DNA of 64,000 nt from assembly GCA_037379345.1 (NCBI GenBank), contig CM074511.1, forward strand, positions 43,406,862 through 43,470,861, in the 5' to 3' direction. Position 1 is the stretch's first letter; each line of letters starts with the position of its first letter. Below, piece by piece: positions 61,501 through 64,000 of this stretch. Position numbers: made by a program. Source of the stretch: Perna viridis (lineage: Eukaryota).

Positions 61501-64000
61501 ACCTGGCGTTCGCAAGAGAAACATAAAAATAGGAGGGGCTATTTTTAATTATAGACTTATGCAACAAAGACTGTTTTTCAATGTTCTAAAAAGAAGAAAA
61601 TTGCAAGTATTCAAATGTCACTATTATATTGTGAATTTTAAAATTAAGTTTTATTTTACTCACTGTCGTAGTACAACAACAAAACTGAACGCAAATCCAG
61701 CGAGTCCTACAACGAGATATGCCAGTGGGAGTCTGTAGTTGTTTCCTATTTCTTTATCGTTTCCGAAATAACCGTAGAATATTGGTGAATATTTTACTAC
61801 TCCCTGAAAACATGTAGAACAACATTCGCAATTTTCGCAAATAAATACATTTGTTCTGTTTTGTTTTGTTTTAATTTTAAAACGAAATCATTTGAAATAA
61901 ATTTCGCATATGGATAACAACTATTCAGTTGTATCTAATTGACGTTGGTTTTTGTTAACTTCTTGGCATAATTAAGAATTACCAAAAGCAAGTTTTACTA
62001 TATATATGTATAGATACTTATTGCTAATTCTTATTATTTTTTAAACAAAGAGCATATTGTTACTGTACTTCAGGAATTAAAACACCTACCTCTGCTTCCC
62101 ATATTGTTTTCAGGTCTGCTGAGTTTTGTCTCTCCTCTTTAGGGATGGTTTTATAATCCACACTCTCATGGGGATACCCGAACAGAATGTAATAGAGAAT
62201 AAAGTGAAAACGAGGAATGTGTGAAAAAGATATAAAAAACTAATAGTGGGTAAAGAGGGGTTAATGCATTTTGTAGGCTTTCAATGAAGGAAATGAAATT
62301 TTCCTAACCTGGAGTATGCCTTACAATATTCACTGAAACAGTAAATACCCCGAAACGGCAAATACACCGGTTCGGCGAAATGGGAATCACATTATACCCT
62401 TAACATAAAATCATTCAAAGGCTACATCGAGGTTTCTTATTTAGGACAGGCGCAAATGATTATGCGGTGTTGTACTAGTTCGATGTGATCGAAATCATCC
62501 TTCTATTATAAATAAGGTAAACTTGGGGCGAAATGAATATAGGCTGCAATTTGTAATATCATTTTTTCATTCGACTTTGAGTGTTTTGAAGGTATTAAAT
62601 AAAATTTTATAACATATTTTATGGTCTGTTAAAATATAATGTTGTTAATTAATATTAAAATTTACTTATCTCTGGAATTATTAAAAAGCACAGTGGTAGC
62701 GCTGTCAGCCATAGATTGATCCACAAAAGCCATCGCAGAAATACAAAATATGATACCACAACAGACCCAAAGTGGCCTTAAAGAAGAATGCAGGAGTCAT
62801 TATTTGGGCTTAGGAAATATGTTAAATTTTATTTTACATAAATATTAATGAATATATTTGAAAAAAAAATCATTTTTGTCTGGAAATTTCAGGTTCTTGT
62901 GATGATTTAAAAGCGAATATTAATTGTAATGTCTCTTTTTATTTTACAAAAATGTTGTTTTATGAGTTGGTGGTATAGCTTGTTATTTTATTTTATTTTT
63001 TTAGTTTTGCAGTGAAATATTAAATAAAGAAAAAATAACTAGATTTCAAATTGTCTCAGATTATGACATATTGAAACAGTATTACCTACTTTCAATAGCC
63101 TTTATTTTCATTTCCCATGGGATGAATAGCTGTGTTAAATTTCGCAGACTTTTCTTAGCTTTGTTTAATGTCTGCAATAAATGTACACCTAAGGAGTCAA
63201 CATTTTACTTACTACAACTATAGAGTTGCCCCTATATAATCAAGTGACATAAATAAAAAAGATAAAAACGAAACAAGACATACAGAAGCCAGAAATCCCT
63301 GACTTGGGACAGGCGCAAAATATTCGGCGAGGTTTAAGTACTTTAGCGTGATCACAACCACCCCCTTCAAAATCTGGCCAGTGTGGAAAAAAATTAAACA
63401 CACCTAACAATCAGTTCAAAAAGGCGTGAGTCCCTAATTGCTACAACGAAGATAGAGAAACTGGATATAAATTACAAAAATGTACAAACTAAGGACTACT
63501 AGCAGTTAACTGACATACCAGCCCCAGACCACTTTAAACCTACAAAAAGTTGTGTCCCCATCATATGTAAAATCAATCCCATTCTTCCCATGCGGGTTTG
63601 AGAATCACGGTACCTCATATTAAATTATTTAATATTTTTTCAACGAGAGGAAGTTTCTCATGCTCATCTCGTGGAGCGGCTTCGCCATGAGAAACCCCGC
63701 TGAATTGTAAGGTATTAGTTTTCTTTTATTTTCAGTTTTCCTAACCTAAATATGTAAGTTTTATAAGCGCTGCAAAGTTTCCTTTTCTGCGGAGTGCTAC
63801 TTGACGTCACGTTATGTTGTGCCGCTATACGATAATTTTCAATCTCACCCGAGTGGGGTGAGATTGAAAATTATCGTATATGTCAAATGGATTTTAAACA
63901 AAAATAGCGATAATAAGTCATACTATAAGGACACAATCTATGTCATGCCAAAATCTGCTTTAAAAGATAGTGTTTTAATTTATATGTAAACCTAATGAGA

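What the first reader, a model, noticed from the sequence alone, without database searches (positions are those of the whole stretch)
62189..62669. Rare AT-AC intron with major-spliceosome (U2) signals in TMC
Seen: the conserved junction IIPE|ILFGYP requires a donor ATAAGT and an acceptor ending TTAC. The donor is the U2 consensus GTAAGT with G1->A, not the U12 ATATCCTT. The 3' end has a long polypyrimidine tract and a TTAAC about 60 nt upstream rather than a proximal CCTTAAC. Both ends are changed in the compensatory way (G..G to A..C), which argues against a sequencing error. The nearby GT (+5) with the upstream AG at 62240 is out of frame, and its first in-frame AG would delete 16 residues including the conserved KTIP. 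Established: U2-dependent AT-AC introns exist but are very rare (e.g. in sodium-channel genes). Gene predictors will probably mis-model this exon.
Basis: partly seen in the sequence, partly recalled or inferred. Interest (0 to 1): 0.7.

Follow-up and report, generated by a model that had tools for sequence, protein, structure and literature searches.

The report
Probable major-spliceosome AT-AC intron in mussel TMC

Summary
On the minus strand a TMC gene runs 63171..51516 as 18 exons. All phases fit and there are no internal stops. Sixteen of its 17 introns are GT-AG. The intron 62669..62189 (481 nt) starts ATAAGT and ends TTAC.

Homology fixes this junction. The two exon peptides were searched separately. 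They abut without a gap in 60 of 71 homologues, and in 23 of the 25 aligned right up to both edges. None of 37 in-frame GT-AG or GC-AG pairs keeps both exon edges.

The signals are U2-type:
- The donor matches the U1 consensus at 8 of 9 positions, the best of 15 donors in the gene.
- The last 50 nt are 80% pyrimidine, the highest in the gene.
- Only 3 of 8 positions match the U12 donor, and there is no proximal U12 branch site.

No Mytilus model joins the junction (0 of 4 that hold exon A). Their read-through begins with Ile-Ser, so Mytilus also has A at +1. In M. trossulus the codon before exon B is Gln, so AC may be confined to this lineage.

No transcript data could be reached. This is a new member of a known rare class.

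The parts
51516..63171 (-). TMC (TMC1/2/3-class) gene, 18 exons held in the window. The 5' exons for roughly the first 120 residues were not found in the window.
   Evidence: Exon-by-exon tblastn and blastp against M. trossulus P0122 and Haliotis P0004. 17 introns, phases all consistent, 0 internal stops in 642 complete codons. 474 of 626 aligned residues are identical to P0122. Pfam TMC domain on exon L, E 4.4e-12.
62670..62776 (-). Exon A (107 nt), encoding the first transmembrane helix and ending ...LCFLIIPE. Its own acceptor is AG.
   Evidence: Residues 1-35 align end to end with C. elegans TMC-1 (7usw_A 162-196, E 2.9e-07) and TMC-2 (8tkp_A 176-210).
62664..62669 (-). 5' splice site ATAAGT: the U2/U1 consensus with A at +1 and G at +5.
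   Evidence: 8 of 9 matches to AG|GTAAGTA, the best of the 15 donors scored (the others 5-7). 3 of 8 matches to the U12 donor consensus.
62189..62669 (-). Phase-0 intron of 481 nt with AT-AC termini.
   Evidence: It is the only one of 73 in-frame stop-free GT-AG, GC-AG or AT-AC pairs that leaves both exon edges unchanged.
62189..62239 (-). AG-free pyrimidine tract of 51 nt ending in the AC acceptor (62190-62189).
   Evidence: 80% pyrimidine in the last 50 nt, against 40-68% for 14 other acceptors. No AG in the last 51 nt.
62221..62225 (-). Candidate U2 branch site TTCAC, with its A at 62222, 33 nt from the 3' end. A second TTCAC lies at 62204..62208, with its A at 62205, 16 nt from the end.
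   Evidence: Match to the yTnAy pattern. This is inference only.
62090..62188 (-). Exon B (99 nt), encoding ILFGYPHESVDYKTIP...WEAE, the first extracellular loop. Its donor is GTAGGT.
   Evidence: It aligns from its first residue in 25 homologues.
62664..62665 (-). Cryptic GT at +5. Joined to the AG at 62240-62241 it is out of frame, with a stop at 62168..62166.
   Evidence: The Mytilus RefSeq models appear to use the equivalent donor.
62203..62220 (-). Two alternative in-frame AC acceptors. Exon B would start at 62218 (+10 aa) or at 62203 (+5 aa).
   Evidence: They are disfavoured by the gap of 0 in homologues but are not excluded.

Best explanation
The stretch 62669..62189 is a phase-0 intron of a functional TMC gene of a mytilid-like bivalve. 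It is removed by the major (U2-dependent) spliceosome despite AT-AC termini, which makes it an 'AT-AC type II' intron.

Inferred mechanism:
1. U1 (and later U6) recognises the donor through extended complementarity. Positions -2 to +7 match the consensus at 8 of 9, with only +1 mismatched.
2. The unusually long, AG-free pyrimidine tract recruits U2AF and U2 to a TTCAC-type branch site 16-33 nt upstream, without needing an AG.
3. In the second catalytic step the A(+1)/C(-1) pair takes the place of the usual G/G contact between the first and last intron bases.

Shown: the sequence, the junction position by homology, the type of the signals, and the integrity of the gene. Inferred: actual use of the junction and which spliceosome removes it.
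For: Junction position:
- The exon A and exon B peptides were aligned separately. They abut with no gap in 60 of the 71 homologues that match both, out of 127 proteins examined. Among the 25 aligned right up to both edges, 23 abut (alignments).
- Exon A matches solved C. elegans TMC-1 and TMC-2 end to end, up to ...PE.
- Of the 37 in-frame stop-free GT-AG or GC-AG pairs, none keeps both exon edges. The least damaging pair removes 16 residues.

Gene integrity:
- There are 18 exons with 16 of 17 introns GT-AG, consistent phases and no stops in 642 codons. Identity to M. trossulus is 76% (474 of 626).

Type of signals:
- The donor matches the U1 consensus at 8 of 9 positions, the best of the 15 donors scored.
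- The pyrimidine tract is the strongest among the 15 acceptors compared.
- The U12 donor matches at 3 of 8 positions. The best U12 branch-site match in the last 45 nt is 5 of 8.

Age of the A at +1:
- The M. edulis P0127 and M. trossulus P0122 models read ...IIPE then Ile-Ser. These species therefore also have AT, not GT, after the exon, and the gene has stayed open since the split.

Precedent:
- U2-type AT-AC introns are documented: 15 in human, 6 in mouse and 3 in fly, each needing a strong U2-like donor. G at +5 is noted as important (PMC1557818; PMC2831892 passages).

Chance of these signals at fixed positions is about 3e-5 or less.
Against: - No RNA evidence. The search with the frame holding exon B found no protein in the collection (3 candidates, none scored). 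No transcript-derived sequence spanning the junction was found.
- In M. trossulus the codon before exon B in the read-through model is Gln (CAA or CAG). The 3' end there would be AA or AG, not AC, so the compensatory C has no cross-species support.
- Two Mytilus RefSeq models use a donor a few bases downstream and an upstream acceptor. Some transcripts may really be spliced that way.
- Two other in-frame AC acceptors exist, at +5 and +10 residues. A branch site at -33 would meet the one at -15 first.
Confidence: 0.65

Rival explanations
1. The conserved junction is not used. Transcripts are spliced at cryptic canonical sites. One option is GT at +5 joined to the AG at 62240, which shifts the frame and stops at 62168..62166. 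The other options are pairs that delete 16 residues. The locus would then give a defective or NMD-targeted product, as a young unitary pseudogene or a down-tuned gene.
For: - The Mytilus RefSeq models P0122 and P0127 both continue past ...IIPE with Ile-Ser and pick an upstream acceptor. P0127 ends in a stop 15 residues after the exon A end.
- In-frame GT-AG pairs exist at 62692/62162 and 62666/62136.
- No transcript evidence for the AT-AC junction was found.
Against: - A at +1 is shared with Mytilus, so it is old. Yet 642 codons in 18 exons are free of stops, with 76% identity to M. trossulus.
- The 16 residues that canonical pairs would remove include the end of the first transmembrane helix. 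That end is identical in Mytilus and near-identical in Haliotis.
- The read-through insert is not conserved as coding between M. edulis (a stop) and M. trossulus (open).
- The cryptic sites are weak: ACT|GTGCTT as donor, and an acceptor without a pyrimidine tract.
Confidence: 0.15
2. The intron is AT-AC and U2-type, but its 3' end is one of the upstream AC dinucleotides. Exon B would then start at 62203 or 62218, adding 5 or 10 residues to the loop.
For: Both are in frame and stop-free. With a branch site at -33, the AC at -15 is the first one reached.
Against: Homologues show no extra residues: 23 of the 25 aligned to both edges have a gap of 0. The added residues would be pyrimidine-tract translation. 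They align to M. trossulus only with an indel.
Confidence: 0.1
3. It is a U12-dependent (minor-spliceosome) AT-AC intron with degenerate signals.
For: AT-AC termini are mostly U12-type (PMC7072748 passages). Molluscs keep conventional minor introns (PMC11347168 passages).
Against: - Only 3 of 8 positions match the U12 donor.
- The best U12 branch-site match in the last 45 nt is 5 of 8. The only TTAAC lies 72 nt from the 3' end.
- A long pyrimidine tract is a U2 feature.
- No TMC gene appears in the held supplements of the mouse/human minor-intron gene list of PMC6717393, while SCN4A and CACNA1A do.
Confidence: 0.03
4. Sequencing or assembly error at the two terminal bases of an ordinary GT-AG intron.
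For: Nothing specific. Raw reads could not be inspected.
Against: Two independent errors would be needed, exactly at +1 and at -1 and in the compensatory combination. The A at +1 is implied independently by Ile codons in the M. edulis and M. trossulus models. The window has no N.
Confidence: 0.03

Closest known systems
U2-dependent AT-AC ('AT-AC II') introns, e.g. SCN4A intron 21, SCN5A, TAF2 (PMC1557818; PMC2831892)
   Same: - AT-AC termini.
- The rest of the donor matches the U2 consensus, with A at +4, G at +5 and T at +6.
- A pyrimidine tract is present and U12 donor and branch-site motifs are absent.
- It sits in an ion-channel gene whose other introns are canonical.
   Different: - The host gene family is different (TMC, not a voltage-gated sodium channel or TAF2) and so is the phylum (Mollusca).
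- Spliceosome dependence is not tested.
- The sodium-channel genes also carry U12 introns. No U12-type intron was seen among the 17 introns here, all the others being GT-AG.
- The 3' AC may be lineage-specific, because the M. trossulus model implies AA or AG there.
U12-type AT-AC introns
   Same: The terminal dinucleotides.
   Different: - The donor is ATAAGT rather than the ATATCCTT type.
- There is no TCCTTAAC-type branch site near the 3' end.
- There is a long pyrimidine tract.
Engineered G1A plus G(-1)C double mutants of U2 introns in yeast and human pre-mRNAs (as summarised in PMC1557818 section 20)
   Same: The same compensatory pair, A at +1 with C at -1, in an otherwise consensus U2 intron.
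   Different: This is a natural allele in an intact gene. Its efficiency is unknown. The summary says such mutants splice less efficiently.

Membership tests
U2-type AT-AC (AT-AC II) intron | AT at the first two and AC at the last two intron bases, at the true exon junction. | tested here: met
   Termini. Junction position fixed by separate exon alignments: gap 0 in 60 of 71 homologues, and in 23 of the 25 aligned to both edges. It is the only pair of 73 that keeps both exon edges.
U2-type AT-AC (AT-AC II) intron | The 5' splice site is a good match to the U2 GT-AG consensus except at +1, with G at +5 (the criterion of PMC1557818; G+5 noted in PMC2831892). | tested here: met
   GAG|ATAAGTA matches 8 of 9 positions, the best of 15 donors in the gene. 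The SpliceRack PWM score itself was not computed.
U2-type AT-AC (AT-AC II) intron | A pyrimidine tract is present and U12 donor and branch-site motifs are absent. | tested here: met
   80% pyrimidine in the last 50 nt. U12 donor 3 of 8. Best branch-site match in the last 45 nt is 5 of 8. The consensus strings were recalled; matching motifs are visible in the table passages.
U2-type AT-AC (AT-AC II) intron | The junction is present in mature mRNA. | not testable with these tools
   No transcript collection for this organism was reachable. The protein search with the exon B frame found nothing.
U2-type AT-AC (AT-AC II) intron | Splicing requires U1/U2/U4/U6 and not U11/U12/U4atac/U6atac. | not testable with these tools
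   This needs an experiment.
U12-type intron | A highly conserved donor of the [AG]TATCCTT type. | tested here: not met
   ATAAGTAA matches at 3 of 8 positions.
U12-type intron | A TCCTTAAC-type branch site close to the 3' splice site. | tested here: not met
   Best match in the last 45 nt is 5 of 8. The matches of 6 of 8 lie 61-456 nt from the 3' end.
TMC (transmembrane channel-like) protein gene | TMC domain (PF07810) and a conserved first transmembrane helix. | tested here: met
   Exon L scores 46.9 bits against PF07810 (cut-off 25). Exon A aligns to 7usw_A and 8tkp_A. The best database relatives are named TMC or TMC3, from Mytilus, at 90% identity over exon L.

The most novel reading that the evidence does not exclude
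The donor G-to-A change is old, being shared with Mytilus. The compensating G-to-C at the acceptor exists only in this window's lineage, because the M. trossulus model implies AA or AG at that site. Mytilid TMC genes would then show the stepwise path GT-AG, then AT-AG or AT-AA, then AT-AC in living species. That would give a natural series for how the major spliceosome tolerates and then repairs a first-base mutation. An alternative novel reading is that the intron is a relic of an ancestral U12 AT-AC intron converted by the rare route proposed in PMC2831892.
Probability: 0.15. Interest if true: 0.6.

Novelty: new member of a known kind. Interest (0 to 1): 0.4.

Why it matters
U2-type AT-AC introns make up about 0.003-0.008% of introns in the genomes surveyed (PMC1557818 table). 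Most known cases sit in one gene family.

A case in a mollusc TMC gene broadens the host range of the class. The TMC family includes mechanotransduction channels; that statement is recalled and was not tested here.

There is also a practical consequence. The same junction breaks every Mytilus gene model examined. It is deleted in two models, carries a 29-residue insert in one, and the gene is split in two in RefSeq M. edulis. Allowing this one AT-AC junction would probably restore a full-length TMC model in mussels.

My searches found no paper linking AT-AC introns with TMC genes. The two papers that hold both 'AT-AC' and 'Mytilus' were seen only as titles and abstracts, and both concern human transcripts.

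Tried and rejected
- Intron retention: reading through hits a stop after 4 codons.
- Canonical alternatives: 25 GT-AG and 12 GC-AG in-frame pairs were listed, and none keeps both exon edges.
- One- or two-base shifts of the boundaries give the same mRNA but termini TA-CA or AA-AT (by eye). These have no precedent known to me, so AT-AC was kept.
- Transcript-derived proteins spanning the junction. The unaltered 59-aa frame holding it found nothing. The 40-aa frame holding exon A found 4 proteins, none from this species.
- U12 ancestry via vertebrates: no TMC gene appears in the held supplements of PMC6717393. This is weak negative evidence. Only 8 files held as text were searched.
- Rfam scan of the whole window: no match. 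No repeat of 150 nt or more involves the intron.
- Exon B against solved structures: no match at E up to 10.
- Orthologous DNA from other molluscs could not be fetched. The splice-site letters in Mytilus and other molluscs therefore stay unchecked and are inferred only from protein models.
All searches and alignments were done exon by exon.
- The window is not human: its best relatives are Mytilus proteins.

Full report
**What is there.** The window is AT-rich (GC about 0.29-0.38) and has no N. On the minus strand lies a TMC gene. Exon A (62776..62670) encodes HFGS...LCFLIIPE. The next six bases are ATAAGT. After 481 nt the sequence ...CTATTAC ends at 62189. Exon B (62188..62090) encodes ILFGYPHESVDYKTIP...WEAE and is followed by GTAGGT. 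Reading through the intron meets a stop after four codons.

**Which gene and organism.**
- An 81-aa exon further down (55049-55294) carries the Pfam TMC domain, E 4.4e-12.
- Its best relatives are TMC or TMC3 proteins of Mytilus edulis at 90% identity. Scallops, abalones and limpets follow at 72-77% (367 proteins at E up to 0.001 among 567 candidates, 120 listed).
- The window therefore comes from a mytilid-like bivalve whose own protein is not in the collection. It is not human.
- Exon A aligns over all 35 residues to the solved C. elegans TMC-1 (7usw_A 162-196, E 2.9e-07) and TMC-2 (8tkp_A 176-210). In both, the aligned stretch ends in ...PE. Exon B found no solved relative.

**Gene model, exon by exon.** Each exon was translated and aligned on its own.
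- tblastn and blastp against M. trossulus P0122 and Haliotis P0004 give 18 exons between 63171 and 51516.
- The phases of all 17 introns fit. There is no internal stop in 642 complete codons.
- 474 of 626 aligned residues are identical to P0122.
- Sixteen introns are GT-AG. Only A-to-B is AT-AC.
- In P0122 the residue numbering runs on from exon to exon at the other junctions. At A-to-B, 29 residues intervene.

**Is the junction really at 62670|62188?**
71 matched both, and in 60 of them the projected gap is 0.
- The 11 exceptions:
  - three Mytilus models (-15, -15, +29);
  - two Timema models (+11);
  - five models at +1, +1, +1, +3 and -1;
  - one spurious match (-714).
- Among the 25 proteins aligned right up to both edges, 23 have gap 0. 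One has +29 (M. trossulus) and one has +1 (first version on 120 proteins; alignments).
- I then listed every GT-AG, GC-AG and AT-AC pair with a donor in 62766..62561 and an acceptor in 62480..62101 that keeps the frame and meets no stop. There are 73: 25 GT-AG, 12 GC-AG and 36 AT-AC.
- Only the pair at 62670/62188 leaves both exon edges untouched.
- The least damaging canonical pairs each cost 16 residues. They are 62692/62162 and 62666/62136. The first removes the end of the first transmembrane helix. The second removes KTIP.
- The GT at +5 joined to the AG at 62240 is out of frame and stops at 62168..62166.

**Which spliceosome?**
- The donor GAG|ATAAGTA matches the U1-complementary consensus at 8 of 9 positions. 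The 14 other donors scored match at 5-7.
- It matches the U12 donor at 3 of 8.
- The last 50 intron bases are 80% pyrimidine, against 40-68% for 14 other acceptors of the gene. There is no AG for 51 nt.
- yTnAy matches (TTCAC) lie 33 and 16 nt from the end.
- The best U12 branch-site match in the last 45 nt is 5 of 8.
- The consensus strings were recalled. Motifs of that form are visible in the published table passages.
- On this strand ATAAGT occurs 37 times in 64,000 positions. Together with AC at a fixed site the chance is about 3e-5. A tract of at least 40 pyrimidines in 50 precedes 0.05% of positions.
- These are U2-type signals, stronger than average, as expected if they compensate for non-canonical termini.

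**Relatives.** Nine Mytilus protein models were seen. Five lack exons A and B altogether because they are N-terminally truncated. Three of those begin in exon C. The four that hold exon A all fail at this junction:
- two M. edulis models (P0002, P0126) jump from ...ALP to GSVGYK, losing 15 residues;
- M. trossulus RefSeq P0122 carries 29 extra residues between ...IIPE and ILFG...;
- M. edulis RefSeq P0127 is a 190-aa fragment that ends 15 residues after ...IIPE. The rest of the gene is annotated separately (P0001).

Both RefSeq models continue after ...IIPE with Ile-Ser, like the window's ATA AGT. An Ile codon starts with AT, so Mytilus too has A, not G, at +1. This rules out a base error at the donor and makes the change older than the split from Mytilus.

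The inserted stretch is open in M. trossulus but stopped in M. edulis, so it does not behave as coding sequence.

One result against full conservation: in P0122 the codon just before ILFG is Gln (CAA or CAG). The intron there would end AA or AG, not AC. The DNA could not be fetched, so this stays open.

**Literature.**
- Sheth et al. 2006 (PMC1557818; passages, section 20 and the table read) define U2-type AT-AC introns by a U2-like donor with A at +1. They count 15 in human, 6 in mouse, 3 in fly and 0 in worm and Arabidopsis. Ten of the 15 human cases are in sodium-channel genes.
- The same paper notes that a G1A mutation can be rescued by G-to-C at the last base, less efficiently.
- Lin et al. 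2010 (PMC2831892; passages) stress G at +5 and propose that such introns derive from U12 AT-AC introns and are then trapped.
- PMC11347168 (passages) states that mollusc orthologues of human minor introns are mostly minor introns, so a true U12 intron here should look conventional.
- No TMC gene occurs in the held supplements of the minor-intron gene list of PMC6717393, while SCN4A and CACNA1A do.
- Searches for AT-AC or U12-type together with TMC1 or 'transmembrane channel-like' found nothing. AT-AC with Mytilus found two papers. Their titles and abstracts, which is all I saw, concern human transcripts.

Rivals:
- use of cryptic canonical sites giving a defective product (0.15);
- an upstream AC acceptor adding 5 or 10 residues (0.1);
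- a U12-type intron (0.03);
- base errors (0.03).

It is a new member of a known, rare class, with a practical bearing on mussel TMC annotation.

Noticed in passing
window 46191..47795 (+): An uninterrupted 534-aa ORF with an N-terminal TIR domain (TIR_2, E 6.9e-12) and BIR domains (E 5.2e-15, 2 stretches). It lies downstream of the TMC gene on the opposite strand.
   Followed up: partly
window about 18400..29500 and about 29800..37500: A large direct segmental duplication at 94-100% identity, with spacing changing from about 11.4 kb to about 8.0 kb. It is either a real tandem duplication or an assembly duplication. It includes ORFs at 18464..19282 (+) that look EF-hand-like by eye. That was not tested.
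   Followed up: no
window 1021..2886 (-): Two ORFs with repeats that look RCC1-like by eye. Probably exons of another gene. Not tested.
   Followed up: no
window about 42186..43383 (both strands): ORF fragments that look like reverse-transcriptase remnants of a retroelement by eye. Not tested.
   Followed up: no
window about 51841..52025 (-): A dinucleotide microsatellite, translated as a run of ER repeats. It lies inside the last TMC intron, between exons P and Q.
   Followed up: no
proteins P0127, P0001, P0122, P0002, P0126 (Mytilus models): Public Mytilus TMC models are split, truncated, shortened or carry an insert exactly at the junction studied here. RefSeq M. edulis annotates the two halves as separate proteins of 190 and 528 aa on the same contig.
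   Followed up: yes
protein P0122, residues 185-213: In the M. trossulus model the codon before exon B is Gln, which implies an intron end of AA or AG rather than AC. How Mytilus splices this intron is unexplained.
   Followed up: partly
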